From positions 13,544 to 77,543 of the forward strand of contig JANYCI010000013.1 in NCBI GenBank assembly GCA_025360325.1: DNA of 64,000 nucleotides, given 5' to 3'. This document shows, one piece after another, positions 23,000-61,743 of the stretch; the first letter of the stretch is position 1; each line of letters starts with the position of its first letter. Made by a program: the position numbers and the translations under genes. The notes below the pieces were generated by a model that was not told the origin of the DNA, searched no databases, and saw only the letters and a list, made by a program, of their open reading frames with translations. This DNA comes from Limisphaerales bacterium (GTDB lineage Bacteria; Verrucomicrobiota; Verrucomicrobiia; Limisphaerales; UBA11358).

Positions 23000-25477
23000 T
23001 CACGGCACGACTTCGATCTCGTAAAACTTTTGCGGCGCGGGCGGCGCGTTGGAGATGTCCGTGAACGAAGTCGTCAGGCTGTTGGCCGAAATGACGCCGC
23101 TGACCGGCGTGAACGGCTGCATCAGATTTGTCGTGGCCAGCACCAGATAATTTTGCCCCGGCGTGCTGCTCCACACCACTTGCTGCGCGTTGCTCGTCAG
23201 CCCGATGATGACCAGCGGTGGCGCGACGATGACCGTCCGCGCATCGGACAACACCGCGACGTTGTTGCTGAAAACAATTTGTAGAACATTGGTGCCGGGC
23301 GTCGTCACCGCCCAGTTGTAAAGCAGCGAACGAAAACCAGAACAGCCCGCGATCGCGCCAACGGGCCGCAAAATGTAATTAGCAGACGGCTGCAATATTC
23401 CATTGATCGTGAGTTGGAACAACGAGGCCGTGTTCGTGGTGAGCGTGGAGGTGAAACACACTTGCACGAGATAGGTGACGTTGTTGGAAATCACCGCGCC
23501 ATCAGCAGCGGGGCTGGAAAATAGCACGAGCGGAGGCGCAGCAGCGGTGCGAAACAGCAATGAATACGGCGCGTAAAGTGTTTTTCCCGAAGCGGTGGCG
23601 AAGGCAGAATTGCTCACGGTGATGGTGATGTTCGTCGCCGCCGCGAAGCCGCCGACGGCGGGCGTGAACGTCATCACATCGCGCGCAGGCGACCAACTGA
23701 ACGTGCCACTGACGGACGGCACGGCGCGGAACGCGGACTGCACGCTGTTGGTATTCATCGGCTGGCTGAATTGTAATACCACAGGCAGCAGCGGCGAAAT
23801 GTTCGTCGCGCTGTGCATCGGAAAATTGGTGACGACGACGGGATCAAGCGGGAGCAGTTGCGTTTGCGCGAGAAAAATTTTTGCGGTCATGGCCGGCACG
23901 GAAATGAGCGGTGTCTGCGGCCCGGCGAGGACAGAAATTATTTCGTTCGGGTTCAGCAAATTCACCAGCGCGGTGCCGGGCGCATAAATCGTCGGGCGGC
24001 TGGCGAGTGTTTGCGCGTTGCTCGCAGTGTTGAAGACGACAAAAACTTCCTGCGTGCCGAGCCGCCGCGAGTAGGCAAACAGACCAGCGGCGCTGGAATT
24101 GTTCCACTGGTTGACGTGTGAGCCGAGCGAGAGAGCGGGATAGAGGCGACGGAAATTATTCAACTTGGCGATCTGTAAAAAAAGCGGATGCGTCATATTA
24201 AAACTGTCCACGCCAGACTGACCGGCATCTTTGAACTGCCCGGCAAACATATCCTCGCGATTATTCGGATCGGTGCCGCCGTTGAACGCCTGCTCGGTTC
24301 CTTGATAGACGCAGGGAATGCCGCGCGAGGTGTGCAGGAACGTGAGCGCGATGGTGAGTTTGTTCGTGTCGCCATTGGCGTTGGCGGAATTAAGGAAACG
24401 CGTCGTGTCGTGATTGTCGAGAAAGGTGACGAGTTGGTTGAGCGTGGCGGCATCGTAGTTCGCGGCAAGGTTATTGAAATGATCTTCGATCTGTTTCGTG
24501 TTACCACCCCGCTCGAAAACATTTTGCGCGGCGAAGAAGAGCGGGTAGTCGAGCAACGAATCCAGCTTGAACGCGCCGCCGCCATTCGTGCCGGAATAGC
24601 TGCCGACTTTTGTATCCGAGCCGTCGAACACTTCACCGAACATGAAAAAATTCGGCTTGCCGTTAGTCGCGGCGGCGCTGTGGATGCGCGGACACCAGTC
24701 TTGCCAGAAACCCATTTCGGCGTGCTTCACCGTGTCCACGCGGAAGGCGTCGAAGCCCGCGTTCGTGATCCAATAATTATAGACCGCCGCTAGGTTCGTG
24801 CGGACGTAAGCGGACTCGGTGCGAAAATCATCAAGGCCGCTCAATTCGCCAAGCTCCAACTGTTGCGTGCTGCTGTAATCAATGATTGCGCCGAAGTTGT
24901 GAAAAAAATTCGTGAGCGATGGATTCAATGCGTTAGTGTTGAACGGCGCGGCGTATTTTTTGGACGAGTTCGCGTAAGTCAAATTGTAGCCGTTCGTGGT
25001 GAACGCGGTGTTACCATCAATGTTGTTGAGCGTGCTACCGTGATTCACCACCACGTCTTGAATGACGAGCAAACCCTTGGCGTGCGCGGCGTTCACCATC
25101 ACTTGCAGATTCGAGAGCGTGCCCCAGTGCGGATCTACGGAATAAAAATCCGCGCCGGAGTAGCCGTGGTATTCGCCGCTGCCGTTTTTGACGATGGGCG
25201 AACTCCAGATGGCAGTGAAGCCTAGTGCCTTGATGTAATCCAATTTCTGTTCGATGCCGCGAAAGTCGCCGCCGTGAACACTCGCGCCGTTGGCGGCATT
25301 GTAGGAACCAGAGGCGTTGTTGTTCGCGGCGTCGCCGTCAAAAAAACGGTCGGTAAAAATCTGGTAGATGCTTTGGGTCTGCCAGAATGTGTTGGGCGCG
25401 GATTGCGACCACCCCCGCAACGCCAGCAGTAAAAGCAGCAGCACGAGCGCGGAAAGTATTTTCGGAGGCACTTCCAA
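23000..25477 (-). CDS. GH13 alpha-amylase-family enzyme with C-terminal Ig-like domains and the shared C-terminal tail
   Basis: GH13 regions DVVVNHGS, FDAFRVDTVKH, FMFGEVFDG, FLDNHDTTRF. The signal peptide is leucine-rich. The start is TTG 25477 or in-frame GTG 25471. Confidence 0.9.
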   Translation of the reverse strand: MEVPPKILSALVLLLLLLALRGWSQSAPNTFWQTQSIYQIFTDRFFDGDAANNNASGSYNAANGASVHGGDFRGIEQKLDYIKALGFTAIWSSPIVKNGSGEYHGYSGADFYSVDPHWGTLSNLQVMVNAAHAKGLLVIQDVVVNHGSTLNNIDGNTAFTTNGYNLTYANSSKKYAAPFNTNALNPSLTNFFHNFGAIIDYSSTQQLELGELSGLDDFRTESAYVRTNLAAVYNYWITNAGFDAFRVDTVKHAEMGFWQDWCPRIHSAAATNGKPNFFMFGEVFDGSDTKVGSYSGTNGGGAFKLDSLLDYPLFFAAQNVFERGGNTKQIEDHFNNLAANYDAATLNQLVTFLDNHDTTRFLNSANANGDTNKLTIALTFLHTSRGIPCVYQGTEQAFNGGTDPNNREDMFAGQFKDAGQSGVDSFNMTHPLFLQIAKLNNFRRLYPALSLGSHVNQWNNSSAAGLFAYSRRLGTQEVFVVFNTASNAQTLASRPTIYAPGTALVNLLNPNEIISVLAGPQTPLISVPAMTAKIFLAQTQLLPLDPVVVTNFPMHSATNISPLLPVVLQFSQPMNTNSVQSAFRAVPSVSGTFSWSPARDVMTFTPAVGGFAAATNITITVSNSAFATASGKTLYAPYSLLFRTAAAPPLVLFSSPAADGAVISNNVTYLVQVCFTSTLTTNTASLFQLTINGILQPSANYILRPVGAIAGCSGFRSLLYNWAVTTPGTNVLQIVFSNNVAVLSDARTVIVAPPLVIIGLTSNAQQVVWSSTPGQNYLVLATTNLMQPFTPVSGVISANSLTTSFTDISNAPPAPQKFYEIEVVP

Positions 25478-25722
25478 GCTTAATCATTTTTTCCCAATCC
25501 TGCTTTCGCACAAAGATGCGATGGATAATTTGCGGAGCGCAGCTATGTTGTCCCGTGAACCCGAACGCTGTCTTGCGCCAAAATTATTTTTTGCCGTCGT
25601 CGGCAGGTTCAAAATTAAAATCCATCCTATGAATAAAAAACAAATCCTGCTGGGTCTGGGCGCAATGTTGGCCGCCGCGTTGACCGCCAGCGCGCAACCT
25701 TACTTATGTAGCCGGCAGCGGC

Positions 25723-27210
25723 GTGACTCCGTCGTGGACGCCCGGTGATGCCGGTCTGCAACTGCTCGGCTCGCCGTTTACCCTTACCACATCCACCGGC
25801 CCGGCGGACACCTATCACGAATTCAAAGTCACGGGTGCCACCTGGAGCGATCCCAACTATCCCGGCGTCAACAACGCCAAAATCAAAAGCAACGCAAACG
25901 GTTCCAACACATTTTATTTTTATCCCGGCGTCAATGCAGACGGCTGGAGCCCGTTGAACAACCGCGTGGGCTATGCCGACCCGGGCAACATGAGCTTTGA
26001 GATCATCGGCGGGTTCGCCGGCTGGAGCGCGGCAACGAACTTGAATCCAATCGGCAACGGAGTTTTCTCCAACAGCATCACCGGCATCGCGCCCGGCTCC
26101 TACGGCTTCAAGTTCCGCACGCCTGGCACCTGGGGCGAAGTAGCGTTTGGCGCAGACTTTCAAAATTTCGGCGCGGACGGCAGCTTCACCGTTTCCAGCA
26201 ATACGCAGGTGCTGCCCGTGGTGCTGGATCTGCCGAAAGGCCGCTGGCTCATTGGCACGCTGGCCCCGGCACCGGTGACCAATCATGTGGTGTTTGCGGT
26301 GGACATGACTTACCAGATTCAACTCAATTTATTTACCCCCGGCTCCTCGGTATTCGTTGCGGGCGCGTTCAACGGCTGGCCCGGAACCGGCCCCGCCGCG
26401 CTCGCGCTGACCAACTTTCCCGCCTACAACGGCGGCAGCAACACAAACATTTACTACGGCACGAACCTATTCGTCGGCGCACCCGGCGCGGTGGTGACGG
26501 CATTCAAATACACCCAGAACGATGTGAACGCGCAAAACGGCGGCTACGAAACTTCCAATGACCGTTCGTTGACGCTGACAGCGGCCAACGGCGCGGTGCT
26601 AAAGCTGCCCGTGGGTGTGTTCAGCGACCTTTATTCGATTGATGTTTTGAACGTGGACACCACGGTGACATTCCGTGTGAGCATGACCAACGCGGTGGGC
26701 ACAGACGCCCATGTGTTTGACTCGGCCAATGACTTGGTCAATATCAACGGTGATTTCATTCCTTGGGTCTCATGGGATCCGATTTCATTGAACAACTATC
26801 TGTTGGCAAATAACCCGCCGGGCACCTTGGTCTATACGTTCACCAAGACGTTTCTGGCCGGTCAGCCGCGCATCGTCACCTACAAATATGCAATCAATGG
26901 TCTGGATAACGAAGCTGGGTTTGCTCAAGACCATAAGCGCTACATCCGCAGCACCACCGGCACCTACATTTTGCCGCTGGACACGTTCGGCACCCAGACG
27001 GTGGAGCCGAAATTTGGCAACCTCGTCATCGCCAAGCCGACCGGCGGCGTATTGCCGGTGACGTGGACTGGCTATCCGGGCGTAAGCCTCCAGACCAGCA
27101 CGAGCCTCACCGGTTCGTGGAGCACCGTGGGAAACACCGACGGGCAGAGCAGCACCAACTGGCCCGCCACCGGCAACGGCAACCGTTACTTCCGCCTGAT
27201 TCAGCCGTGA
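25723..27210 (+). CDS. multi-domain carbohydrate-binding (starch-binding CBM-like) secreted protein; N-terminus apparently frameshifted
   Basis: Repeated beta-sandwich modules, e.g. [24 protein letters not shown]...KYTQND...[11 protein letters not shown] (CBM20-like by eye; the family call is tentative). A signal peptide MNKKQILLGLGAMLAAALTASAQ starts at 25629 but in a different frame. Confidence 0.75.
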
Positions 27211-27263: not shown

Positions 27264-28181
27264 ATGAACATTGCAGTCCACCCCCATAAAAACCGGCCGG
27301 CGGGTTTTACCCTCATTGAGCTGTTGGTAGTCATCGCCATCATCGCGATTCTGGCGGCGATGCTGTTGCCGGCACTGTCCAAGGCCAAAGAGCGGGCGCA
27401 GTTAATTTCATGCTTGAGCAACTACAAGCAATTGGGGCTGGCTTGGATCATGTATTCGGGCGACAACAATGAAAAGCTCGTCACCAATTCCGACCGCAAC
27501 GTGGGTGGTAACAAGGTGAACTGGATTTGTCCCTACGGCGTGACTATGGACGGAACCGCCAATATCAAGAATACTGAAACCCTCTACCTCACCGTGGATC
27601 AGCCGGTTCTGGGAACTGCTCTCATGGGTCAATACGTCGCCAAGTCGCTCAAAATTTTTGTCTGCCCTTCCGACCATTTCTTGAGCGCGAATCAAAGCGG
27701 CTTTGCCAACCGCATCCGCAGTTGCGCGATGAACGGAGCGATGGGCGATGGCGAAAAATGGTTCGGCCTCAAGGCCGACGGCTCGCCCAACGGTGGCCGC
27801 AGCCAGATGCCCACTTTTTTCAGCGCCAAAAAAAGCGGCGACCTGCACACGCCCGGCCCCAGTGATTGCTGGGTCATCACCGACGAGCACCCGAATAGCA
27901 ACGATGATGCGAGCCTCTACGTTGACCCTGCCGCGTCCAACGGGAACGGCACCACCTTCACCGAGCTTCCCGGCAGTATGCACGCCAGTTCCGCCGCGCT
28001 GGTGTTTGCCGATGGCCACTCGGAAACCAAGCGCTGGAAGGGTGCCGTCACGCTGACAAAATTTAACCCCAGCCTCACCGGTTGGATTAGTGGTTCAAGC
28101 TGGCTGTCAGGGATCAGCGGCTTGGATGCCGACAGTAAAAAAGACTTGCAGTGGCTGGCGGAACACACGCCAAAAAATTAA
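27264..28181 (+). CDS. prepilin-type N-terminal cleavage/methylation domain protein, H-X9-DG family (DUF1559-like pseudopilin)
   Basis: [29 protein letters not shown], and near the C-terminus [12 protein letters not shown] (exactly H-X9-DG). The ORF-track start at 27063 overlaps the upstream gene, so ATG 27264 is preferred. Confidence 0.88.
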
Positions 28182-28233
28182 AACACATTTTCGTGCGGTT
28201 GCGTTCACCGCGTGAATCGGGCATTTATTTTCC

Positions 28234-35432: not shown

Positions 35433-35589
35433 ACTTTTTTGTGAAGCTAAATAAAAAGTTTGCGAAATCAACTGAGGTAATCAGACGAACATCTGGTGCA
35501 TTTTCGAGGTCGCTATGATTTAATATCGGCACGACCCCATGTGCATCCAAATTAATGGACAAAAGATTTGTTCGCGCTTCGCCGCGAAG

Positions 35590-36540
35590 ATGGGTTTTTA
35601 CGGGCTCGTGCTGATCTCGGTATTTGCTCTGCCGGCACAGGCGCAATTACTTTCCTTCCCCGGCGCGCAGGGCTTTGGTCGCTTCGCCACGGGCGCGCGC
35701 GGCGGCACGGTTTATCACGTCACGAACGCGAACGACACCGGCGCGGGTTCGTTCCGCGATGCGGTGAGCGTGGCGAATCGCACCGTGGTCTTCGATATCA
35801 GCGGCGTCATCCGCATCAACAGCCTGATCAGCGTGGCGAACAATGTGACCATCGCCGGTCAGACTGCGCCGGGCGGCGGCGTGACGATTTACGGCCACCG
35901 GCTTTCTTACACGGACGCGAACAATTCCATCACGCGCTTCCTCCGCGTCCGCATGGGCATCAACGGCGACGGCAACGACACCATCACGATCTCCAGCGAA
36001 CACGACATGATTTTCGATCATCTCTCCGTCTCGTGGGGACAGGACGAAACTTTTTCCATCAGCGGCAGCGATCCCTCGAACATCTCGATCCAGAGCACGA
36101 TGATTTCGCAGGGCTTGCAGACACATTCGGCGGGCGGTTTGATCCAGACGGTCGGCGGCGTGAGCATTCTCCGCAGCTTTTACATTGATAACCACACGCG
36201 CAATCCGAAGGTCAAGGGCGTCAACGAATACGTCAACAACGTCGTGTATAACTGGGAATCCGACGCCTACATCCAGGGAGATTCCACCAGCCCGTCCTAC
36301 GCCAACGCCATCAATAATTATTTCATCAACGGCCCGTTGAATCAAAGCCTCGTGACCGTGCGCAGCGGCGGCCCGACGAATGTTTCCTACTATGTGCTGA
36401 CGACAACAAACCTCGCGCTGCCCGCCGCCAACTGGACGCGGCTGGCGACGAACCAGTTCGACAACAGCGGCGGTTTCAAACTCACCAACGCGGTCTTGGC
36501 CGGGATGCCGCAGACATTTTATCGGTTACAACTGCCATGA
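35590..36540 (+). CDS. pectate lyase (PL1-like) with the shared C-terminal tail
   Basis: FPGAQGFGRFATGARGGTVYHVTNANDTGAGSFRDAV, TIAGQTAPGGG, DHLSVSWGQDE, NHTRNPKV, NNVVYNW. The start at ATG 35590 gives signal MGFYGLVLISVFALPAQA. Confidence 0.85.
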   Translation: MGFYGLVLISVFALPAQAQLLSFPGAQGFGRFATGARGGTVYHVTNANDTGAGSFRDAVSVANRTVVFDISGVIRINSLISVANNVTIAGQTAPGGGVTIYGHRLSYTDANNSITRFLRVRMGINGDGNDTITISSEHDMIFDHLSVSWGQDETFSISGSDPSNISIQSTMISQGLQTHSAGGLIQTVGGVSILRSFYIDNHTRNPKVKGVNEYVNNVVYNWESDAYIQGDSTSPSYANAINNYFINGPLNQSLVTVRSGGPTNVSYYVLTTTNLALPAANWTRLATNQFDNSGGFKLTNAVLAGMPQTFYRLQLP

Positions 36541-36625
36541 ACCGGAGCAACCTATTTTTAATTCAAACGCGGAAACCCCAAAGCCCGGCATCTCCGCGAT
36601 TCAAAATAATTTGCACACCACGCTT

Positions 36626-38248: not shown

Positions 38249-38267
38249 CCGGCGATACCGAAACAAA

Positions 38268-40802: not shown

Positions 40803-40835
40803 GATCTCGGAGTGATTCGGCGATTCAATAAATCC

Positions 40836-45740: not shown

Positions 45741-48700
45741 TTGCCGCGCGCGGCCTTGTTTTTACCTTTGTTGGCAGACATGAGCGCGGCTTCGCAAGAT
45801 TTCACGCTCAACAACAGCAACATTCTTGGTGCCAATCAAATTTGGAATGTGGCCGCCGGTCGAATCCTTTCCGTTGCCAACGCCGGTCATCCGGGATTGA
45901 TCAAAGGCACGGCGAGCCTGACGAAAAATGGCAACGGCACTTTGTTATTGCGCGGGTTGAACAGCTATAGTGGCGGAACGATTGTGAACGGCGGCATTTT
46001 GCAGATTAACAACGGAACGACCGGCACGGGCACCAGCGGCACCAACAGCGCCGGCATCGGCGGCATGACCCTCAACAACGGCACCACGCTGCAATATGTC
46101 GCCGCCGTGAACATGGGCAATACGCTCACGGTCAATGGCACCGTATTCGTGGATATGAATTTAATTGGCGGCAGCACGCTGGCGAATGGGTCATGGATTA
46201 GCAGCGGCGGCACGGTGATCATCACGAACGCCATTTCCGGCACCACCTTCACCATCGGCGGCAACGGTGTCGGCGGTGGAAACATGAACAACTTTACTGG
46301 CGCAGTCGTGATGGCCAGCGTGACCAGTCAAGGGGTTCCGCTGACAAACAGTTTGCGGCTCAATGATAGCGGCGGAAACAACAACGTCGGCAATGCCAAT
46401 GCCTCCTTTGATCTTGGAAACGGCGTGGTCAACCTGACCGCGCGAAATCGCTCCGGCAGCACGATCAGTTTGGGCGCATTGAGCGGCGGTTCGAGCACTC
46501 TCGTGAAAATTGGCAGCAGCGGCAGTGCCGGCACCACTTACTCGGTTGGCGGACTGAATACCTCAACCACCTTCAACGGAATTTTTGATGGCACGGGAAC
46601 GACCGCCGGAATGTTTCTGGCGCTGACCAAAGTCGGCAGTGGTGTTTTCACGCTTACCGGAACCAATACCTATAATGGGACGACGGCGATCAACGCGGGG
46701 GCGTTGCAGGTTGGCAATGGCGGCACTTCCGGCCAGCTGGGAACTGGCGGCGTGGTCAATAATGCAACGTTGATCTTCAACCGCGCCGATGATGCTGCGG
46801 TCGGAAATGCCATCAGCGGTTCGGGAACCGTAATCAAAACTAACGTGAATACTTTGACCTTGAATGGCACCAACAGCTCCTCGGGCGCGACAGTCATCAG
46901 CCAAGGCACTTTAGCTCTTGGGGTTTCTGGGTTGATGTCTTGCCCGGTCTTCGTCGCCAGTGGTGCGAGGTTTGACATCTCGCAAAATCCCGCCTTCACC
47001 TTGAATCAGATTTTATCCGGCTTCGGCACGGTGACGGGATTGGTGACAGCGGTGGGCGGAACCATCAGTCCCGGAGGCAGCGGTGCGGCGGGCACGCTGA
47101 ATTTTTCAAACAACGTTACGGAAACGGGCAACGTCAATCATCAATTTGAATTGTCCAGCGTCGGCGGCACTAACGATCTCATCAACATCGTCGGCGACCT
47201 CACCGTTACGGGCACAAATATCATCAGCTTGAGTCATTTTGGCGGCGGAACGATTCCGAACGGCACTTACACGTTGTTCACCTACAGCGGCAATCTCAAT
47301 GGCGGCGTCACTAACTTTTCGGCCAGCGGCGTCGGCAACATCGCAGTGGTGACCAATGATGTGGCGAATCAAATCCGCGTGGTCATCACCCAGACTCCGC
47401 GTGGGGCAACAAATTTATCCTGGGTGGGTGATGGCGGCGCGAATAACTGGGCGGTTGGTGTCAGCAACTGGATCAGTGGAGCGACCTCCTTTGCCTTTCA
47501 GACCGGCGACAGCGTGCGCTTCGATGCAGCCGGCGTCGCGAATCCAACGGTGAATTTGAACGTCTCGGTCTCGCCGACCGCAGTGGTGGTGAGCAATACG
47601 ACGGCCTACACCATCACTGGTGGCGGCAACATTGCCGGGTTGACTGGATTGATTAAAACCAACTCCGGAACTTTAACCGTGCTGACAACCAACAGTTACT
47701 CCGGCCCGACGATCATTGGCGGCGGAACGCTCGTGGTCTCATCGGTCGCCAATGCCGGTTCGCCTTCGGGAATCGGTGCGGCCAGCAGCAACCCGACCAA
47801 TCTGGTGTTCTTTGGAACGACCTTGAACTACAACGGCGCAGACAGCGCCACTGACCGGGGTGCAACTTTGAATGGAACCGGCGGCATTATTGGCGTAGTG
47901 CCGGGAGTCACGCTTGAGCTGGACGGTGCCCTTACCGGTCTCGGTGCGCTGATAAAATCGGATACCGGCAATTTGACCATCAATAACAGCGTGCTTCCAA
48001 ACACCTACAGTGGCGGCACGATTATCAGCAACGGCGTGCTCGTGCTCGGCGGCAACAATGCCAACAGTTCCGGGCTGGGCACTAACTCGGTGACTTTCTA
48101 TGGCGGCACGCTCCAATTGTTTGGCTATAATGGCAGCACCGCCAACAACTACCTTTCGCCGCAAAACCTTTTGGTGGTGCCAGCGGGCCAATCGGGAACC
48201 GTGCAGATGTTTCCGCGCGGGCCTAATAACGCTTCCGGGCTGGCCAGCAAACTGGTTGGCGCAGGCACCATGAACTTGGTGGTGAATTATGTTCGCGATA
48301 ACATGGGCGGTGACTGGTCCGCCTTCACCGGCTTGATCAACGTGACCGGAAAAAATATTTCCGGTGATGAATTCCGCATTGATAATGCCGCTGGTTTCTC
48401 GAATGCCGTCATCTACCTGAACAGCGGTGTGATAATGGATCGCGCCAATACGGCGAATGCCACGATTGATATCGGCGAGCTGGCCGGGATCAATGGAGCC
48501 ATCATCGGACCAGGCACCGGCAGTGCCGCCAATCCCACCTGGCGCGTGGGCTGGAAGAACACCACCAGCTCCTTCGCTGGAACCATTGCCAATGATGGGA
48601 CGGCTTCTTCTATCACCAAAGTCGGCACTGGCAAATGGATTTTGTCGGGACAAAATACTTACAGCGGTTCCACCATCGTGAGCAATGGGGTGCTGGCGCT

Positions 48701-49448
48701 CGTGAATGATCCGGTGTCGTTGACGGATGGTTCCATCGGAAGCAGCGCGAACATCTTGATCAAATCCGGGGCGTTCTTGGATGTCATTGGCCGCAGCAAC
48801 GGGACGATGCCGCTGAATTCCGGTCAAGTCATCGGCGGCGAGGGAACCCTTCGCGGCATTCTTGACACCACAGCGGGTGGCACGGTTTCGCCCGGCGGCG
48901 GCATCAGTGGTGCGGTTGGCACATTGACGGTAACTAATTCCGTCAATCTCGGCGGCACGGCGTGGATGAAACTGAATCGTGGTGCCAGCCCGAACAGTGA
49001 CAAACTGTCCGCTCCACACATCGCCCTCGGCGGCGCGCTGTTGGTGACAAACATTGGTGCGGCGCTGCACGTCGGCGACAGTTTCACCCTGTTCAATGGC
49101 ACTTTGTCAGGAACGTTCAATGGCAATGTGACGTTGCCCAACGGTTACACTTGGAATACCAACTCGCTCGAAACGAGTGGAACTATTTCCGTGACCGCCG
49201 TCGCCGCCCCGCCGGTCATCAGCAGTGTGGACTATAGCCAATTGTCCAGCGGTATGCTGGCGTTCAATGCCACCGGCGGCGCACCGGGCGGCGCGTTTTC
49301 CATCCTGACCAGCACGAACCTCTCGTTGCCGCTGTCAAGTTGGACCACGGCGGCGACCGGTAATTTTGATGGCAGCGGCAATCTCACCGCCTTTTCCGTG
49401 ACGGTGAATCCGGCATTGCCGCAAAGTTTCTTCATACTAGCTCAATGA
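45741..49448 (+). CDS. autotransporter-associated beta-strand repeat (PATR) giant protein with the shared C-terminal tail
   Basis: Dozens of ~30-aa units, e.g. [30 protein letters not shown] and [33 protein letters not shown] start 45741. The signal peptide is weak ([18 protein letters not shown]). Confidence 0.85.
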
Positions 49449-49527: not shown

Positions 49528-50307
49528 ATGAAAACAAAAAAACCGGCGGGATTCACGTTGATTGAATTGCTTGTGGTGATCGCCATCATTGCGATTCTTG
49601 CGGCCATGCTTTTGCCTGCGTTGTCGAAAGCCAAGAGCAAGGCATTGCAAACATCCTGCCTAAGCAACCTGAAGCAGATGCAGCTCTGCTGGCACATGTA
49701 TGCGGATGACTACAACGATGTCATGGCGTTGAATCCTAAAAATTCCACGACGAATGCGTGGATTTTGGGAAGTATGCAGAATGCTGCGGACGCGGTGAAT
49801 CTCACGCTGCTGCAAAACGGACAATTATATTCCTACAACAAAAGCACGGGCATTTATCGCTGCCCGGCAGACATCAAGGCTGCGCCGGGAGGCATAGCAT
49901 TTCGCGTCCGCAGTTATGCTATGAATTGCTACATGAGCGGAGAGGATGTCGGCGGGACTCACTACAGTTTGACCGGTTATCATGTGAACAAAAAAACGTC
50001 CCAAATCACCACGCCCAAACCGTCCCAGGCGTTTGTGTTTGTTGAGGAGGCGGAATTTTCCATTGATGACGGACACTTTGGTTTTACTCCCGATGGTTCG
50101 CCCGGACAGGGACCGATCAATGTCTGGCTGAACATTCCCGGGCTCTGGCATCACGGCGCGAATTTTTCCTTCGCGGATGGCCATGTGGCTTTCACCAAAT
50201 GGGTCGAAGGTTCAACGCTGGCGCTCAACACCATCACGTCGTCAGACCAATCAACCGCCCACACGGACTTGCGCAATGTGCAATCCATTCTCGCGACGAA
50301 AAATTGA
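49528..50307 (+). CDS. prepilin-type N-terminal methylation domain protein, H-X9-DG-like pseudopilin
   Basis: [31 protein letters not shown]-terminal [13 protein letters not shown] (H-X8/9-DG). Confidence 0.88.
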
Positions 50308-50316
50308 CAGTGACGT

Positions 50317-51177
50317 ATGAAAAGTAAAAAGCCGGAGGCATTCACCCTGATCGAACTCCTCGTCGTCATCGCCATCATCGCGATTCTGGCGGCGATGCTG
50401 CTGCCGGCATTGGCGCGTGCCAAGAGCCGCGCCATCACCGCCCGCTGCATCGGCAACATGCACCAGATTTCTACTGGCTGCGCGATTTACTCGACGGATT
50501 ACAACGACTGGTATCCAGTGTGGTCGGATCATCTGTCCAATCCCGGCGGCCATCCGCTGAATGAAATTCACAGTCAAGGCTACGCCTACTGGCTGGTCGG
50601 CCCCAAGACTGTTCCGACCGGCGTTACGATTTCGCAAAACGCGGACAAGAGCGTTTATGATTTCCAAAACCTCGGTCTGCTCTATTCCGGGAATCTGGCG
50701 GGCGACGGCCACATTCTTTACGACCCGGCTTTTAATGCAGCCAATTCCACGAGCCTGCCGGACATCAACACCTACTCGAAGCCATCTTTTCTTTCGCCGG
50801 ATGCTGGCGGCCAGGTTTATTCCAGCTACCTGTTCAATCCGCGTATCGTGAATGCCGCCGGTTATCTGGCCGGCAATCCAAAAGATCCCGCCACGCTGCG
50901 GCTTATGCCCAAGCAAAGCAAGGCGCAGCACAAACTGTTCATGGTGGATTATGTGCAAACGCCCGATCTCGGCGTGCCGCCAACCTTCAGCGCCACATCT
51001 TTTGCCCATCATCCATCCAAGGGCTTCAGTGTTCTCTTTGGTGATGGCGCGGCCAAATTTATTTCCAGCCAGTCCGCTTTGAAGATAGTTCTCTCCGGCA
51101 CCTTCACCACTGTCCAAACGGTTCAGTCTTGCACGGATTATGACAAGCTGTTCGACGCGCTTGAAGCCAGCGAGTGA
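50317..51177 (+). CDS. prepilin-type N-terminal methylation domain protein (divergent H-X9-DG-like pseudopilin)
   Basis: [31 protein letters not shown]-terminal [14 protein letters not shown]. It starts 9 nt after the previous pseudopilin gene. Confidence 0.85.
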
Positions 51178-52847: not shown

Positions 52848-52869
52848 AAATCTTTTATCTGTTCGGAAA

Positions 52870-56289: not shown

Positions 56290-59200
56290 ATGAAACCCAA
56301 CACATCCATTTGCATTCGAAATATTTTACTGATGAGCGGTCTGCTTTTGCTGGCGGGCGTAGCCAATCTTGAGGCGGCTACTTTCACCACGGTGGCGGGC
56401 GCCAGCGGCAACTGGAGTTCCGGTGCCGTATGGGCTGGCGGTGGGGTGGCTGGCGGGGTCGGCAACATTGCGCAGTTGGGAGCGGGCGGCAGCACGTTCA
56501 CGCTGGATATTGCCACGAACATCGGAGTGATCAATGACGGTCAAGCATCGGCGCGCGCTTGGGCCATCAATGCCAGCGGCTCAATTGCAATAACGATGGA
56601 CAACACCGGCAACGCCGTGAACAACCCGGCCGGAACCCTCAACGCCTACATCGGCGAGTCCTCCAGCGGCACGATGACTTTCAACCCAAACATCATCATC
56701 CAAAACACGGATCTGGATTTTGCCAATACCGGGTCCACCACCCCCACTTTGGCCATTGGCGTTTTGGGGACGTCCACCATCACCGCCACGAGCGCGCGGA
56801 ATCTTTTCATCCGGCAAAATCAAGCCACCACCACCAAAGCCATCAACATCAACAGCAGCATCGGCGGCAGCGGCAGCAGCGTCATCACCATTCAAAACGT
56901 CGGCACTGGCGGCGGCGTTTCAGCCATGAACCTGAACGGCGTGGTCGGGCCAAATGCAGGCGTCGTCCAGAACAGTGCCAATTCGATTCTGTCGTTGAAT
57001 AACGCGGCGAACAACTACACGAACAGCACGATCATCACGCTGGGCACCTTGAGATTGGGCGCGGCCAATGCCGTTCCGAGCGCTAGCAGCGTGGATGTCA
57101 CTGGCACATTCAATTTGGTCAGCTTCAGTGACACCATCGGCGCCCTGACCGGTGCTGGCACGGTAAACGCATCGAGCGGCACGCCCACCCTGACAGTCGG
57201 TGGTGGCGATGCCAGCGGCACGTTTAGCGGCATCATCCAAAATTCTGGCGGCACAATGTCTGTGGCCAAGACCGGCAACGGCACGCAGGTTTTGAGTGGC
57301 GTGAATACTTACGGTGGCACCACGACCATCAACGGCGGTTTCCTCAACGCTGGTGTGGCGGATGCCGGCACCGGCCCGTTCGGCAGCGGCGGCAGCATCG
57401 CGTTCGGTGGCGGCACGTTGCAATACTCCGGCGCAAATAATTTCGATTACTCCGCCCGCTTCAGCACGGCAGCGAACAATGCCATCAGCATTGACACCGC
57501 CGGACAGGCCGTGACTTTTGCCACCGCGCTCACCAGCAGCGGCGGCAGTTTGAAACTCACCAACTCGACCGGCACCGGCACGCTGACGCTCACGGCGGCG
57601 GCAACTTACAGCGGCAACACCGCCATTAATGGTGGCACGTTGAGCTTGAGCGGCAGCGGCGCGCTGGCGAGCAACTCCACGGTGAGCATCGGTGCCGGAG
57701 GCACGTTTGATGTCTCTGCGCTGGCGAGTCCCTACACGCTCGGCAGCAGCGCAACTTTGCGCGGTAGTGGCTTCGGCACTTTGGTCGGCACCAACGCGGC
57801 CCGCATCGTCGCCGCTTCCGGTGGGATTTTTGACGCGGGTTCGCAACCGATTTCTCTGACGTGGAACGGCGCATCATCCGGCACGGACAACACGCACCCG
57901 TCGCTCCTCGTTTCGCAAGGCACGCTGAACTTGAACACCAATCCGATCACGGTCGTAGTGCCGGGAACGGCGTTGGATGTCGGCGTTTACACTTTGATTT
58001 CCGCCCCGGCTATCAGCGGAGTTGCGCCCAATCCCACGCCGTCCTACACCGGCGGCAACGGCGTTGGTCTTGGAAAAGTCGGCGTGATTTCTGTCAGCGG
58101 CTCCACCGTGATCCTAACAGTTAGCGCGGCTGGAGGAACGGTTGGCACCTGGGCCAACGATGTTGACGGCAACTGGACGGACGGAACCAAATGGAGCAGC
58201 AACCCTAACGTGCCGCATCTGGCGGGCGACGCCGCCACGCTAGGTATCGGCTCGGCTTTACGCACAGTCACGCTGAACGCGAATCAAACCGTCAGCACTT
58301 TGTCTCTGACCAATGCGAACTCATTCGTCATCGCAAACAGCGGCAAAGCGCTGACGCTCGACAACACCGGCTCCGGCGCGTCGGTCAATGTCATTGGCGG
58401 CACGGCGAACAACATCCAAACCGCCGTGGCCTTGAAGGACAACGCCGTGGTCACTGTCGGCAGCGGCAAGTCGCTGGCATTTTCTGGAACCGTCAGCAAC
58501 ACCGCCGCCGCCAAAACCATTTTGTTCAACGGTGCTGGCACGAACATTCTTTCCGGCGCCAACAGCTACGGTCCGGCGGCTGGCACCGTGGGCACCACCG
58601 TCAACGCCGGTGGCACGTTGCGCTTGGGCCACAGCAGCGCGCTCGGCGCGGGTGATTTGAGCGTGTCCGGCAACAGCACATTGCAGGCGGGCGCGGCGGT
58701 GAGCGTCGGCAATAACATCACCATCGCTGACACGACTACGGTGGACAGCAGCGGAAATAATTTTGCTTTGGGCGGCGTCATCAGCAGCGCGGGCGGCCTT
58801 ACAAAAACCGGCAACGGCACGCTCGCGTTGAACGGCAATAATACTTACACCGGCAACACGACGGTGAACGGGGGCACGTTGAGCCTTTCATCGCCGAACA
58901 ATTTTCTGAACAGTCCGAGCATCATCCTCAACGGCGGCGGACTGCTCGGCACCGCAACTTTCACCGCCGCCAACAACATCGGCATCGGCGCAGCCTCCGG
59001 CGCAGTCGGCACGAATGCGTTGATTGACGCGGCCAGCGGACAGGTCGTCACGTTGAGCGGCGTCATCGGCACGGCGGGCAACGGCGGTGGGAACGGACTC
59101 ATCGTCAACAGCGGCGCGGGCAACAACGGCACGCTGGTTCTCAGCGGAGCGAATACATTCAACAGCACGACGGTCATCTCGAACGGCACATTGCAAGTTG

Positions 59201-60855
59201 CGAACTCGCTTGCGTTGCAAAACAGCGGGTTAAATTACAATACGGGCACGCTGATCTTCGATGGCAGCATCACGGCGGCCACGCTTGCTGGAATAAACTC
59301 CACTAACAGTTTGAGAACTTTGGCGCTGACCAACACTGCAGGCGGCGCGGTGGCATTGACGGTGGGCGGAAATAATGCGCCTGTCGTTTTCACCGGCAAT
59401 TTGAGCGACGCTGGTTCGCTCATCAAAGCTGGCAGCGGCACACTGACGCTCAACAATCCCACTTACACCGGCAGCACCACGATCTTCGGCGGCTCGGGCG
59501 CGACGACCATCAGCGGCGGAAATTTCGGTTCGCTCGCAAGCGCGATTACGATTGGTGCCAACTTCTTCCTGACCGGCGGCACGGCCACGGCCTCCGCGTT
59601 CAACCTGGCCACCGCTGGCGGGCAGACCGGCGTGGGCGCAACCATCAACGGCACGGCGAATCTCACAAACACGGCGACAACCATCGGCAGCGGCGGCAAC
59701 ACGGCAGGAGCCATGACCCTCAACTCTGCTGGCAACGTGAATCTGGGAGATGTGAAGGTCAACAAGGATCAGGGTGGCACCACCAGCGGCCTGATCATCG
59801 CAAGCGGAAATGTTTTCGCGACCAGCGTCAACGTCGGCCAAAGCGGCACCGCTGCGAGGGCGTCCGACATGACCATTACCGGCGGAACGTTGACGGTTGC
59901 TGATGTGACGCAGACCGGCAAGTTTGCCGTCCACTGCGGCGCGGGCAATGGCACCCTGACGGTGAGCGGCGGCGCGCTGAATTATCTGGGAACAGATGGA
60001 TTGCAAATGTCCATCGGTGCCGGTCCCAGCATCGCTGCCATCATCGGCGGCACGGCTACGCTCTCCGGCGTCACGCTTAATTCTGGCAGCACCGCTACCA
60101 CATCCACTCTGACGGTGGCCGGCACGAACAATCCGACCCTTTATTTGGGTAGCGTGGGGCTGATCATCAATCTGCCAAGTCCCACCGTGGCAGCTACATT
60201 TGGTAACGGCACCATCGGTGCCTTGGCCGACTGGGCGTCTGAGGCGCCGATCACGCTCACAAATAATCCTATCTTCAAAGCCGCCGATGCCGCGAACGTG
60301 CCGCATAGCATCACGTTGAGCAATGTTCTGTCCGGCACGGGTAATCTCACCAAAACCGGCAATGGCACTTTGATCTTGATGGGTGCGAACACTTACACCG
60401 GCAACACCATCGTCAGCGCGGGCACGCTGGATTTGTTGCAGGCATCGCTCTTCACCAATTCCACCGTCTCGGTTTCCAACAGCGCGACCTTACGGCTGGA
60501 TTTCTCCGGCACAAACATCGTGGCCGGTTTGATTCTGAATGGCGTCAGCAAGGCGGCAGGCGTTTATTATAACGGCACCGATCCGACGTTCCTGACCGGC
60601 ACTGGATACATTCAAGTTCAGCCGCTTGTTTCTCTAGTGCCGACAAACATCACCACGACAGTTTCTGGCAGCACCCTCACGTTGTCATGGCCAGCGGATC
60701 ACCTCGGCTGGCATCTGCAAATCCAGACCAACTCGCTTGCTGATGGCTTCGGCACGAATTGGGTCACGCTGCCCGGTTCGGACACTGTGACTTCAACGAA
60801 CATGACTATTGATCCCGCCAATGGCAGCGTGTTTTACCGCATGGTGTATCCGTAA
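56290..60855 (+). CDS. autotransporter-associated beta-strand repeat (PATR) giant protein with the shared C-terminal tail
   Basis: Signal MKPNTSICIRNILLMSGLLLLAGVANLEA. Many PATR units (VAKTGNGTQVLSGVNTYGGTTTINGGFL, LTKTGNGTLALNGNNTYTGNTTVNGGTLSL). It ends ...GSVFYRMVYP. Confidence 0.9.
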   Translation: MKPNTSICIRNILLMSGLLLLAGVANLEAATFTTVAGASGNWSSGAVWAGGGVAGGVGNIAQLGAGGSTFTLDIATNIGVINDGQASARAWAINASGSIAITMDNTGNAVNNPAGTLNAYIGESSSGTMTFNPNIIIQNTDLDFANTGSTTPTLAIGVLGTSTITATSARNLFIRQNQATTTKAININSSIGGSGSSVITIQNVGTGGGVSAMNLNGVVGPNAGVVQNSANSILSLNNAANNYTNSTIITLGTLRLGAANAVPSASSVDVTGTFNLVSFSDTIGALTGAGTVNASSGTPTLTVGGGDASGTFSGIIQNSGGTMSVAKTGNGTQVLSGVNTYGGTTTINGGFLNAGVADAGTGPFGSGGSIAFGGGTLQYSGANNFDYSARFSTAANNAISIDTAGQAVTFATALTSSGGSLKLTNSTGTGTLTLTAAATYSGNTAINGGTLSLSGSGALASNSTVSIGAGGTFDVSALASPYTLGSSATLRGSGFGTLVGTNAARIVAASGGIFDAGSQPISLTWNGASSGTDNTHPSLLVSQGTLNLNTNPITVVVPGTALDVGVYTLISAPAISGVAPNPTPSYTGGNGVGLGKVGVISVSGSTVILTVSAAGGTVGTWANDVDGNWTDGTKWSSNPNVPHLAGDAATLGIGSALRTVTLNANQTVSTLSLTNANSFVIANSGKALTLDNTGSGASVNVIGGTANNIQTAVALKDNAVVTVGSGKSLAFSGTVSNTAAAKTILFNGAGTNILSGANSYGPAAGTVGTTVNAGGTLRLGHSSALGAGDLSVSGNSTLQAGAAVSVGNNITIADTTTVDSSGNNFALGGVISSAGGLTKTGNGTLALNGNNTYTGNTTVNGGTLSLSSPNNFLNSPSIILNGGGLLGTATFTAANNIGIGAASGAVGTNALIDAASGQVVTLSGVIGTAGNGGGNGLIVNSGAGNNGTLVLSGANTFNSTTVISNGTLQVANSLALQNSGLNYNTGTLIFDGSITAATLAGINSTNSLRTLALTNTAGGAVALTVGGNNAPVVFTGNLSDAGSLIKAGSGTLTLNNPTYTGSTTIFGGSGATTISGGNFGSLASAITIGANFFLTGGTATASAFNLATAGGQTGVGATINGTANLTNTATTIGSGGNTAGAMTLNSAGNVNLGDVKVNKDQGGTTSGLIIASGNVFATSVNVGQSGTAARASDMTITGGTLTVADVTQTGKFAVHCGAGNGTLTVSGGALNYLGTDGLQMSIGAGPSIAAIIGGTATLSGVTLNSGSTATTSTLTVAGTNNPTLYLGSVGLIINLPSPTVAATFGNGTIGALADWASEAPITLTNNPIFKAADAANVPHSITLSNVLSGTGNLTKTGNGTLILMGANTYTGNTIVSAGTLDLLQASLFTNSTVSVSNSATLRLDFSGTNIVAGLILNGVSKAAGVYYNGTDPTFLTGTGYIQVQPLVSLVPTNITTTVSGSTLTLSWPADHLGWHLQIQTNSLADGFGTNWVTLPGSDTVTSTNMTIDPANGSVFYRMVYP

Positions 60856-60951: not shown

Positions 60952-61743
60952 ATGAAAAATTATCAAAAAAATATTCCGTCTCGTGCGGCATCCGGCTTCA
61001 CGCTGATTGAACTGCTCGTCGTCATCGCTATTATCGCCATTCTCGCCGCGATGCTGCTGCCCGCGCTGGCCAAGGCGAAAGCCAAGGCGCAACAGACCTA
61101 TTGTCTCAACAACATCAAACAGCTCAATCTGGGCACGACGATTTATGTGGGCGACTATGCGGACACTTATCCCGGTTCTGGCTCCCGCAGTGCCGCCGTG
61201 GCCAATGGCGGGGTGAATCTTCCGTCGGACTGGATTTATTTCATGAACGCACCCTCGGCACCGCTGGCCAAAAGTCCGGTTTTGGTTACGATCGGGGTCG
61301 GGGCAAACACAAATTTTTTCCGTTGTCCCATGGATCTGGACAGCCCGACGCGCACCGCCGGCTACCCGGCCAGCTATTCTATGACCAGTTTTGATGCGCC
61401 CACGACCGACCCGTCCAATCCGCATGGCATTACCTCATCCTTTTCCCTGACGGGTCCTCAATATCCTTTCAAGCAAACCCGCGTGCGGAATCCAGTCAAC
61501 AAAATTCTCGTGGCCGAGGAGGTGGCTTCCCTCACAGCCGCTGACAACCCGGTGGCCAGCAATACTCAAGTCATTGATGACGGACGTTTCGTGCCGACTT
61601 CCCGCAACGCCTACACCAACGCCAAAGATTTGCTCACCAGCCGACACAGCAAAAGGGCTGATGTCGGATTTTGTGATGGTCACGTCGAGCCGGTTTTTTG
61701 GATGATTGGCACCAATCAGGCGAACACGTTTGCCGATTATTAA
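60952..61743 (+). CDS. prepilin-type N-terminal methylation domain protein, H-X9-DG family pseudopilin
   Basis: [31 protein letters not shown]-terminal [12 protein letters not shown] (exactly H-X9-DG). Confidence 0.88.

What the first reader, a model, noticed from the sequence alone, without database searches (positions are those of the whole stretch)
60676..60852. Shared ~50-aa extreme C-terminal module on five otherwise unrelated secreted proteins (candidate sorting signal)
The five tails are:
- PATR-2 ends ...LTLSWPADHLGWHLQIQTNSLADGFGTNWVTLPGSDTVTSTNMTIDPANGSVFYRMVYP.
- PATR-1 (49275..49445) ends ...[51 protein letters not shown].
- The pectate lyase (36382..36537) ends ...YYVLTTTNLALPAANWTRLATNQFDNSGGFKLTNAVLAGMPQTFYRLQLP.
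- The CBM protein (27052..27207) ends ...[42 protein letters not shown].
- GH13 (23003..23179, minus strand) ends ...YLVLATTNLMQPFTPVSGVISANSLTTSFTDISNAPPAPQKFYEIEVVP.

The common pattern is hydrophobic-x-L/I-x-(S/T)-T-(N/S)-L, then a W about 8-10 residues later, then a short variable segment, then F/Y-Y/F-(R/E/I)-hydrophobic within 6 residues of the stop.

Its position at the very C-terminus of enzymes, binding proteins and PATR giants alike mirrors known C-terminal sorting domains such as the T9SS CTD and PEP-CTERM. It does not match either as far as I can tell. It has no TM segment, no PEP motif and no basic tail.
Basis: partly seen in the sequence, partly recalled or inferred. Interest (0 to 1): 0.65.

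Follow-up and report, generated by a model that had tools for sequence, protein, structure and literature searches.

The report
Unmodelled C-terminal FN3-like tail, Verrucomicrobia
Five proteins in this Verrucomicrobial window end in the same ~73-residue fibronectin-III-like domain, which in this lineage sits at the very C-terminus of many unrelated signal-peptide-bearing enzymes and adhesin-like giants, has no Pfam or NCBIfam model, and probably acts as a surface-sorting or docking tag, although that function is unproven.

Summary
All five tails exist as written and each ends at a stop codon. Inside the window only the PL and PATR-1 tails are significantly similar. Database-derived profiles add GH13 to that pair, join CBM to PATR-2, and bridge the two clusters through intermediate sequences at 95-98% hhalign probability. 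The five tails therefore belong to one family.

The module is about 73 aa, not 50. AlphaFold2 models it confidently as a small FN3-like beta-sandwich that ends 4-5 residues after a conserved F-Y-R strand, usually in Pro. In every set examined, at least 97% of copies lie within 3 residues of the C-terminus. Rare tandem arrays exist, and they too end in a terminal copy.

Hosts carry Sec signal peptides and are diverse: GH13, GH28, pectate lyase, GH95, CBM and lectin proteins, and PATR repeat proteins. The family is concentrated in Verrucomicrobiota subdivision 3 (Limisphaerales/Pedosphaera). Pfam, NCBIfam and PDB sequence profiles do not cover it, and it is not a T9SS CTD or PEP-CTERM signal by sequence.

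Tail-bearing genes are about 5-fold enriched for a prepilin-type (H-X9-DG class) gene immediately downstream, and that pairing is conserved in a Sus-like starch locus.

A sorting or anchoring role is the best reading (about 0.5) but remains an inference.

The parts
60634..60852 (+). C-terminal module of PATR-2 (73 aa, PATR2-type: ..LTLSWPADHLGWHLQIQTNSL..NWVTLPGS..VFYRMVYP-stop)
   Evidence: Translation. AF2 model pLDDT >90 across the domain. Deep HMM 128 bits. More than 200 close relatives, all terminal.
49209..49445 (+). C-terminal module of PATR-1 (79 aa, PL/PATR1/GH13 cluster)
   Evidence: Translation. Leave-one-out 21.4 bits. hhalign 99.6% to PL-type. Deep HMM 79.9 bits.
36340..36537 (+). 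C-terminal module of the pectate-lyase-like protein (66 aa)
   Evidence: Translation. Leave-one-out 26.3 bits. AF2 pLDDT 90.7 with five strands. PelZ-like catalytic part at residues 28-238.
27007..27207 (+). C-terminal module of the starch-binding (CBM/X25-like) protein (67 aa, CBM-type)
   Evidence: Translation. 114/120 orthologs end in the same motif. hhalign 93% to PATR2-type. Deep HMM 83.9 bits.
23003..23221 (-). C-terminal module of the large GH13 alpha-amylase (73 aa, GH13 sub-type, lacks the central Trp)
   Evidence: Translation. hhalign 95% to PL-type. Deep HMM 84.5 bits.
56290..60855 (+). PATR-2 host gene (signal peptide MKPNTSICIRNILLMSGLLLLAGVANLEA; autotransporter-associated beta-strand repeats; no beta-barrel domain)
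45741..49448 (+). PATR-1 host gene (TIGR02601 repeats; start and signal peptide uncertain)
35539..36540 (+). Pectate-lyase-like host gene with signal peptide
25629..27210 (+). CBM host gene. The signal-peptide segment (ATG 25629) is in a different frame from the body (25723-27210) because of one extra T near 25700-25710.
   Evidence: Orthologs have an in-frame signal peptide.
23000..25477 (-). GH13 + Big_5 host gene with signal peptide
27264..28181 (+). Prepilin-type (N_methyl/DUF1559) gene immediately downstream of the CBM gene. The pairing is conserved in 4 distant genomes.
49528..51177 (+). Two prepilin-type genes (49528-50307, which carries the H-X9-DG motif, and 50317-51177), starting 79 nt downstream of PATR-1
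60952..61743 (+). Prepilin-type gene 96 nt downstream of PATR-2

Best explanation
The tail is a lineage-specific, autonomously folding C-terminal domain of about 73 residues. It is an FN3-like six-strand beta-sandwich that ends right after the 'F-Y-R-x-x-x-P' strand. I propose that it works as a localisation tag on Sec-exported proteins of Verrucomicrobiota subdivision 3.

Proposed mechanism:
1. The N-terminal signal peptide takes the protein into the periplasm.
2. The folded C-terminal domain, on a flexible linker, is recognised by a shared partner.
3. That partner delivers the cargo across the outer membrane and/or holds it on the outer surface.
4. The most likely partner is a type-IV-filament (T2SS-like) system, or the prepilin-type H-X9-DG proteins that are so often encoded immediately downstream.

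Shown here: homology, fold class, terminal position, signal peptides, cargo diversity, taxonomic restriction, absence from domain libraries, and the enrichment and synteny with prepilin-type genes.

Inferred, not shown: that the domain is a recognition or anchoring element, and which machinery reads it.
For: 1. Terminal position is extreme. In 868 kb of related genomes, 106/108 copies end within 3 residues of the stop and none is internal. Other sets give 88/89, 136/136 and 96/99.
2. The end itself is constrained. Exactly 4 residues follow F-Y-R in 81% of PATR2-type tails, and the last residue is Pro in 87%.
3. One tail, many cargoes. Among 40 hosts: PATR 17, GH28 10, LamG 6, F5/8C 6, DUF5010 5, CBM35 5, plus pectate lyase, GH95, BNR and tectonin. 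GH28 also occurs without the tail, so the tail is an add-on that is independent of catalysis and of substrate.
4. Hosts have Sec signal peptides.
5. Copy number is high: 5 in this 64-kb window, more than 583 confirmed stretches in species-representative genomes, and thousands of 50%-identity clusters.
6. In a conserved Sus-like starch locus, the large amylase and the non-catalytic starch-binding protein carry the tail and the small amylase does not. A non-catalytic binder is only useful if it is retained on the cell.
7. PATR proteins here lack an autotransporter beta-barrel and end in the tail instead. A 'choice-of-anchor' GloVer protein has the module in its anchor slot.
8. 19/95 tail genes versus 13/301 other genes are followed within 600 nt by a prepilin-type gene (odds ratio 5.5, P=8e-6). 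This holds for 3 of the 5 tail genes in the window. The pair is syntenic across orthologs of about 45-50% identity.
9. There is experimental precedent for FN3 domains as export determinants of T2SS-secreted CAZymes: Pel3/PelI (PMC7949064) and Xoo CbsA with a C-terminal FnIII domain (PMC9190976).
Against: - There is no experimental or genomic identification of any machinery. I could not scan whole genomes for T2SS or T9SS components or run phylogenetic profiling.
- FN3-like domains are common passive spacers in bacterial CAZymes.
- The module can occur internally in tandem arrays (P0094 with 8 copies, P0170 with 6), so a free C-terminus is not required for folding.
- Several divergent sub-types coexist in one genome, which is less simple than a single signal read by a single receptor.
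- In the related loci the prepilin adjacency holds for only about 20% of tail genes, and for none of the 12 PL/PATR1/GH13-type copies.
- The adjacency could reflect shared membership of polysaccharide-utilisation operons and not physical interaction.
Confidence: 0.5

Rival explanations
1. The tail is a passive structural or adhesive FN3-like end domain. It might act as a stabilising cap, a spacer, or a low-specificity binder of polysaccharide or of the cell's own envelope glycans. It would have no role in sorting or secretion, and its terminal position would simply reflect how the domain was acquired and inherited.
For: - The closest folds are ordinary FN3 domains.
- FN3 modules are frequent in bacterial CAZymes without a known function (PMC7949064).
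- The module forms tandem spacer-like arrays in P0094 and P0170.
- Tail sub-types are inherited vertically with their cargo; for example, all CBM orthologs keep the CBM-type tail.
Against: - A spacer at the extreme C-terminus has nothing to space unless its far end is attached to something.
- A terminal rate above 97%, a fixed 4-residue ending and a terminal Pro are not expected of a generic spacer.
- The same tail sits on starch-, pectin- and fucoside-active enzymes and on PATR giants, which argues against substrate binding.
- The strongly conserved loop 'WPADHxGW' across unrelated cargoes suggests a common partner.
Confidence: 0.27
2. The tail is an export-assisting or intramolecular-chaperone domain that acts before or during inner-membrane transport and is removed afterwards, as reported for the C-terminal FnIII of Xanthomonas CbsA. 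It might work through SecB binding or by inhibiting the enzyme until release.
For: - In PMC9190976 a C-terminal FnIII domain is required for SecB interaction and efficient export, is absent from the secreted enzyme, and inhibits activity.
- The tail here is attached through a low-confidence, linker-like segment.
Against: - The tail is also present on non-enzymatic binders and on 1200-1900-aa PATR proteins.
- This does not explain the fixed C-terminal ending or the prepilin-gene association.
Confidence: 0.1
3. The tail is a highly divergent type IX secretion C-terminal domain (T9SS CTD).
For: - Same logic: an all-beta C-terminal domain of about 70-90 aa on signal-peptide proteins of many functions, with no TM segment.
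- The RgpB CTD (7pq4) appears in the Foldseek list.
Against: - No hit to Por_Secre_tail or any T9SS CTD model, even at E<=1.
- The RgpB CTD is only rank 47, with TM 0.31 and rmsd 11.7.
- The models show 5-6 strands ending after strand F, not a 7-strand CTD.
- The organisms are Verrucomicrobiota, outside the Bacteroidota/FCB range of T9SS. That range is stated from my own knowledge; T9SS gene content was not tested here.
Confidence: 0.03
4. The resemblance is chance or compositional: Ser/Thr/Asn-rich beta-strand sequence at gene ends.
For: - Inside the window, three of the five tails are not individually significant in the leave-one-out test.
- The sequences are rich in T, S and N.
Against: - Profile-profile probabilities of 93-99.6%, including through independent intermediates.
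- Hundreds of database relatives with the same register.
- Two independent confident AF2 models with the same strand order.
Confidence: 0.01

Closest known systems
Type IX secretion C-terminal domains (type A, TIGR04183/PF18962; type B, TIGR04131)
   Same: An all-beta C-terminal domain of similar size on Sec-dependent proteins of many unrelated functions (CAZymes, adhesins). There is no TM segment, many cargoes exist per genome, and the domain is restricted to a lineage.
   Different: There is no sequence-model match. The structural match is poor. The fold is FN3-like and ends after strand F. The host phylum is Verrucomicrobiota. Machinery and cleavage are unknown.
FN3 domains that act as type II secretion/export determinants in CAZymes (Pel3/PelI N-terminal Fn3, PMC7949064; Xanthomonas CbsA C-terminal FnIII, PMC9190976)
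   Same: An FN3-type fold attached to secreted polysaccharide-degrading enzymes, including a pectate lyase, and dispensable for catalysis. PelI (3b4n) and Pel3 (4u4b) appear in the Foldseek list for the PL-type model. The association with pilin-like genes points to type-IV-filament machinery.
   Different: Those are single-protein cases with 7-strand Fn3 domains and composite, protein-specific signals. Here one conserved family, strictly C-terminal, is shared by very many cargoes, which is how a modular tag behaves.
Fibronectin type III domain (Pfam fn3, PF00041)
   Same: The best Foldseek matches are FN3 domains (Tencon, integrin beta4, LAR, neogenin). The module has a Trp in the 'LSW' strand and a Tyr in the 'FYR' strand, at positions where FN3 domains carry a core Trp and a Tyr (my reading from general knowledge of the fold).
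   Different: There is no fn3 HMM hit at E<=1. Foldseek E-values are only 7e-3 or weaker. The models have 5-6 strands and the protein ends where a G strand would begin. Ordinary FN3 domains show no such terminal bias.
PEP-CTERM/exosortase, LPXTG/sortase and other 'xxx-CTERM' signals
   Same: They are C-terminal, occur on many cargoes, and are lineage-specific. A 'choice-of-anchor' GloVer protein carries this module where such signals normally sit (the meaning of the name is from my own knowledge).
   Different: Those are short tripartite signals (motif, TM helix, basic tail). This is a folded 73-aa domain with no hydrophobic helix.
Dockerin modules of cellulosomal enzymes
   Same: A small non-catalytic module, typically at the C-terminus of many different CAZymes, that docks them to a common partner.
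   Different: A dockerin is a Ca-binding helical duplicate, not a beta-sandwich. No cohesin-like partner has been identified here.

Membership tests
T9SS C-terminal domain (type A/B) | Match to Por_Secre_tail / TIGR04183 / TIGR04131 profiles | tested here: not met
   No Pfam or NCBIfam hit on any tail at E<=1, nor on proteins with 6-8 tandem copies at E<=0.1.
T9SS C-terminal domain (type A/B) | Seven-strand Ig-like sandwich resembling solved CTDs (e.g. RgpB) | tested here: not met
   The models have 5-6 strands. RgpB CTD 7pq4 is rank 47 with E 0.23, TM 0.31 and rmsd 11.7, and is absent from the top 50 for the other model.
T9SS C-terminal domain (type A/B) | Genome encodes T9SS machinery (PorV, Sov/SprA, PorU, GldKLMN) | not testable with these tools
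T9SS C-terminal domain (type A/B) | C-terminal position on signal-peptide proteins of diverse function | tested here: met
PEP-CTERM / other TM-type C-terminal sorting signals | Short motif, then a hydrophobic TM helix, then a basic tail; TIGR02595-type profile match | tested here: not met
   The sequences show no hydrophobic helix or basic tail, and NCBIfam gives no hit.
Pfam fn3 (PF00041) | Profile match | tested here: not met
   No hit at E<=1 on the tails. PDB sequence-profile hits to FN3 proteins are only at E about 1.
FN3 fold class | Two-sheet sandwich with FN3 topology and structural similarity to solved FN3 domains | tested here: inconclusive
Classical autotransporter (for the PATR hosts) | C-terminal beta-barrel translocator domain | tested here: not met
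   NCBIfam finds the TIGR02601 repeats in PATR-1 and PATR-2, plus one weak sub-threshold autotransporter-peptidase hit in PATR-2 (21 bits against a cut-off of 1700). It finds no beta-barrel translocator domain. The proteins end in the 73-79-aa tail.
T2SS-dependent Fn3 secretion determinant (Pel3/PelI type) | Secretion depends on the T2SS and on Fn3 loops contacting T2SS components | not testable with these tools
   There is only indirect support: enrichment and synteny of prepilin-type genes next to tail genes.

The most novel reading that the evidence does not exclude
The tail is the cargo-side docking domain of an undescribed Verrucomicrobial surface-display or secretion route. In this route the hugely expanded prepilin-type H-X9-DG/DUF1559 proteins, whose function is currently unknown, are the partners. 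Each cargo's FN3-like C-terminal domain would bind a cognate pilin-like protein encoded just downstream, so that enzymes, binders and PATR adhesins are exported by, or displayed on, type-IV-filament-like structures.
Probability: 0.15. Interest if true: 0.85.

Novelty: new variant of a known kind. Interest (0 to 1): 0.6.

Why it matters
How PVC bacteria get their very large repertoires of polysaccharide-degrading enzymes and giant PATR proteins across or onto the outer membrane is poorly understood. T9SS is not expected in this phylum, and these PATR proteins lack autotransporter barrels.

A conserved, abundant, strictly C-terminal domain shared by such cargoes gives a concrete handle:
- It defines a predicted surface or secreted proteome for subdivision-3 Verrucomicrobia, which are abundant in soils, peat and lakes.
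- It deserves a domain model in Pfam or NCBIfam, since thousands of proteins are currently unannotated over this region.
- It points to a testable link with the unexplained expansion of H-X9-DG/DUF1559 prepilin-type proteins.
- It provides a candidate tag for heterologous surface display in these organisms.

Tried and rejected
- **Contaminated profile (A2).** About 45 upstream columns leaked into the alignment. The top multi-stretch hits were giant repeat proteins of other lineages, several ending in T9SS-type CTDs. A trimmed profile showed that 11 of 147 representatives lack the module. The family counts of 9820 and 3996 clusters are therefore upper-bound estimates.
- **Source contig.** An exact lookup of LepA with the stop codon included found nothing. 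The source was identified through the CBM protein and cluster lookup instead.
- **Direct link between the two tail clusters.** hhalign stayed at 67-74% even with deeper profiles. The question was resolved only through the tandem-copy intermediates.
- **'Tail marks polymer-active families, periplasmic families lack it'.** The control set of 68 tail-less signal-peptide proteins also contains GH28. Family names do not discriminate, and the idea survives only as the starch-locus anecdote.
- **'FN3 missing its G strand, needs donor-strand complementation'.** I considered this. Internal tandem copies have the same 72-73-aa period with no extra strand, so the six-strand unit is self-sufficient. The idea was dropped as a necessity.
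- **Literature.** Eight full-text searches found no description of this module or of a tail-prepilin link. The freshwater Verrucomicrobia MAG paper and the Kiritimatiella paper contain nothing relevant.
Full report
**1. What is in the sequence**

The host ORFs are:
- PATR-2, 56290-60855.
- PATR-1, 45741-49448.
- A PelZ-like pectate lyase, 35539-36540.
- A CBM/X25-like starch-binding protein, 25723-27210.
- A GH13+Big_5 alpha-amylase, 23000-25477 on the minus strand.

Pfam and NCBIfam recognise the catalytic and repeat parts of these proteins but nothing in the last 70-100 residues, even at E<=1.

**2. Is the resemblance more than chance?**

A profile built from the five tails trivially recovers them, so I used leave-one-out profiles scored against all 871 six-frame ORFs and 1000 shuffles.
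- PL scores 26.3 bits and PATR-1 21.4 bits, clearly significant against shuffle maxima of about 13.
- GH13 (10.2 bits) and CBM (6.7 bits) rank first but are not individually significant.
- PATR-2 is not recovered.

Within the window alone, then, the claim holds for one pair only. External sequences settle the question.
- A search of 5.8 billion proteins with the five-tail alignment gave 89 relatives falling into three visible sub-types.
- Profile-profile comparison gives PL-PATR1 99.6%, PL-GH13 95% and PATR1-GH13 86%.
- The full CBM protein has at least 120 orthologs, and 114 of them end in the same motif. Their tail profile matches the PATR2-type profile at 93% over 58 columns.
- The direct link between the two clusters stayed at 67-74% even with a deeper profile.
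- Tandem copies of the module in two database proteins (P0094, P0170), used in no training set, are hit by both cluster HMMs. Their profile matches PATR2-type at 97.8%, PL/PATR1/GH13-type at 96.8% and CBM-type at 94.6%, each over 67-70 columns.

All five tails therefore belong to one family with at least three sub-families. Deep profiles find no sixth copy in the window.

**3. Anatomy**

The conserved unit is about 73 aa, not about 50. AlphaFold2 gives confident models for the PL-type tail (pLDDT 90.7) and the PATR2-type tail (domain residues above 90, preceded by a 22-residue low-confidence linker).

Both models show the same order of strands:
- A hairpin ending in 'L.LSW' (PATR2 and CBM types) or 'L.F.G' (PL type).
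- A strand ending in 'TN(S)L'.
- A short strand after the conserved Trp.
- A fourth main strand.
- A last strand carrying 'F-Y-R'.

The protein ends 4 residues after the Arg in 81% of PATR2-type tails, and the last residue is Pro in 87%.

Foldseek against the PDB gives no hit at E<=1e-3. For the PATR2-type model the best hits are fibronectin type III domains (Tencon 4lpw at E 7e-3, integrin beta4, LAR, neogenin; TM 0.41-0.47). The T9SS RgpB CTD is rank 47 (TM 0.31). The PL-type model hits only generic Ig/FN3-like sandwiches, among them the Fn3-bearing pectate lyases PelI and Pel3. Sequence profiles find no solved relative.

Proteins with 6-8 tandem copies are also invisible to Pfam and NCBIfam. 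The family is genuinely unmodelled.

**4. Terminal bias**

- 88/89 hits of the first search end within 2 residues of the C-terminus.
- 96/99 new hits of the third search end within 3 residues.
- The exhaustive search of 1.84 billion cluster representatives returned 9820 hits at E<=1e-3 and 3996 at E<=1e-10. That profile carried about 45 contaminating upstream columns.
- With a trimmed profile, 136 of the 147 retrieved representatives contain the module, and all 136 have a terminal copy. The other 11 are module-less repeat proteins.
- Only four proteins have additional internal copies: P0094 (8 tandem copies), P0170 (6), P0098 (2) and P0099. The extra copy in P0099 looks like a read-through fusion with an upstream paralog.

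The least biased test used 79 genomic loci (868 kb) fetched from species-representative genomes. Scanning every six-frame ORF found 110 copies. All of those followed by a stop in the locus lie within 10 residues of it, 106/108 lie within 3 residues, and none is internal.

**5. Who carries it, and where**

The loci come almost entirely from MAGs labelled Verrucomicrobia subdivision 3, Limisphaerales, Pedosphaera or Verrucomicrobiia. A few discordant labels are probably binning or labelling errors.

Of 74 hosts whose ORF is bounded by an upstream stop within the locus, my crude heuristic flags a Sec signal peptide in 58. Most of the remaining full-length hosts show an obvious one on inspection, and the six shortest ORFs look like fragments. 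All CBM orthologs inspected have one.

Pfam content of 40 hosts: PATR 17, GH28 10, Laminin_G_3 6, F5/8 type C 6, DUF5010 5, CBM35 5, CBM6 4, plus pectate lyase, GH95, BNR_4, tectonin and alpha-1,3-glucanase. A control set of 68 tail-less signal-peptide proteins from the same loci also contains GH28. The tail is therefore an add-on that is independent of catalytic family.

**6. Context that bears on mechanism**

(a) Prepilin-type genes.
- In the window, three of the five tail genes are followed at about 50-100 nt by genes beginning '[25 protein letters not shown]'.
- TIGR02532 scores above its cut-off in all four of these genes, and one also passes the H-X9-DG model.
- In the 79 loci, 19/95 tail genes versus 13/301 other genes are followed within 600 nt by such a gene on the same strand (Fisher odds ratio 5.5, P=8e-6).
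- The association also holds for hosts without detectable PATR repeats (14/82). In the loci it was not seen for the 12 PL/PATR1/GH13-type copies.

(b) Conserved starch locus.
- Four CBM orthologs at about 45-50% identity, on long contigs, all show the order CBM-tail protein, then N_methyl protein (277-290 aa), then a tail-less alpha-amylase of about 460-500 aa. An MFS transporter follows in three of the four.
- One of them also has the divergent GH13+Big_5 gene upstream, as in the window.
- This looks like a Sus-like alpha-glucan locus. The two components expected at the cell surface (the large amylase and the non-catalytic starch binder) carry the tail, and the small amylase does not.

(c) Anchor slot.
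- PATR-1 and PATR-2 have autotransporter-associated repeats but no beta-barrel, and they end in the tail.
- P0094 is a 'choice-of-anchor' GloVer-repeat protein whose anchor position is filled by the module. The interpretation of that name comes from my own knowledge of NCBIfam naming.

**7. Interpretation**

The most economical reading is a modular C-terminal localisation domain for Sec-exported proteins. Its logic is analogous to the T9SS CTD, but it differs in sequence, fold details and phylum. It may be read by a type-IV-filament or T2SS-like system, or by the adjacent prepilin-type proteins.

There is experimental precedent for FN3 domains as export determinants of T2SS substrates:
- In Pel3/PelI, loops 3 and 5 of the Fn3 domain form a secretion signal, and the domain is cleaved off after secretion (PMC7949064).
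- In Xoo CbsA, a C-terminal FnIII domain is needed for efficient export and is absent from the secreted enzyme (PMC9190976).

What is shown here is the family, its fold class, position, cargoes, taxonomy and gene neighbourhood. What is inferred is the function. I put the sorting or anchoring reading at about 0.5, a passive structural or adhesive FN3-like end domain at about 0.27, a CbsA-like export-assisting domain at about 0.1, a divergent T9SS CTD at about 0.03, and chance at about 0.01.

**8. Novelty**

The literature library, Pfam (2025) and NCBIfam (2026) contain no description of this domain. The kind of thing it appears to be, a folded C-terminal tag on secreted proteins, is known. This family, its FN3-like form, its lineage and its link to prepilin-type genes are not. 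I therefore rate it a new variant of a known kind, of moderate to high interest.

Noticed in passing
window 25629-25746 versus 25723-27210: The CBM gene's signal peptide (MNKKQILLGLGAMLAAALTASAQPY, ATG at 25629) is in a different frame from the body. One extra T in CCTTACT[T]ATGTAGCC breaks the conserved 'AQPYYVAGSG' junction seen in orthologs. The same extra T occurs in three independent assemblies from different sequencing runs. It is therefore a real frameshift (a pseudogene, or a gene that needs recoding) and not an assembly error.
   Followed up: yes
window 27264-28181, 49528-50307, 50317-51177, 60952-61743: Four prepilin-type N-terminal cleavage/methylation genes (DUF1559/H-X9-DG class). 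All four lie directly downstream of tail-bearing genes. The enrichment is confirmed in 79 related loci (odds ratio 5.5, P=8e-6).
   Followed up: yes
window 23000-29616; loci L083, L084, L085: A conserved Sus-like alpha-glucan utilisation locus: a divergent large GH13+Big_5 amylase, a CBM/X25-like starch binder, a prepilin-type protein and a small GH13 amylase. An MFS transporter follows in other genomes. The order is conserved at about 45-50% protein identity.
   Followed up: partly
window 45741-49448: PATR-1 has no convincing signal peptide at its called TTG start ([19 protein letters not shown]...). It begins 17 nt after the stop of the 1125-aa DUF4450 protein (42347-45724), in another frame. 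The true start, or the integrity of the gene, is uncertain.
   Followed up: no
window 36611-42461: A cluster of GH29 fucosidase, GH2 and a second GH29 fucosidase. The first has a Tat-like signal (SRRKFLKSSALATGA). None carries the tail, which fits periplasmic exo-glycosidases, but this was not tested.
   Followed up: no
window 52188-55455 (minus strand): A LuxR/GerE-type response regulator (52188-52847) and a large histidine kinase (52870-55455), read from their sequences, lie upstream of PATR-2. Orthologous CBM loci elsewhere have a Y_Y_Y/HisKA_3 kinase plus a GerE regulator directly upstream. This suggests a PUL-style hybrid regulator.
   Followed up: no
database proteins P0094 (960 aa) and P0170 (511 aa): Proteins made largely of the module itself. 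P0094 has GloVer 'choice-of-anchor' repeats followed by 8 tandem copies joined by 'LLPPPPL' linkers. P0170 has a signal peptide followed by 6 copies. They are sequence intermediates that bridge the two tail clusters, and they might be scaffolds.
   Followed up: partly
database proteins P0091, P0093, P0097, P0108: The top multi-stretch hits of the exhaustive search are giant repeat proteins from other lineages that end in typical T9SS-type CTDs (...GIYFIRMQT...KAILMK). They were caught by contaminating upstream profile columns, not by the module.
   Followed up: yes
loci L004, L012, L025, L051, L055-L057, L070, L075: Several genomes that carry the tail are labelled Bifidobacteriaceae, Acidiferrales or Sulfotelmatobacter. 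Their tail, PATR and prepilin content is like that of subdivision-3 Verrucomicrobia, so they are probably mis-binned or mislabelled MAGs.
   Followed up: no
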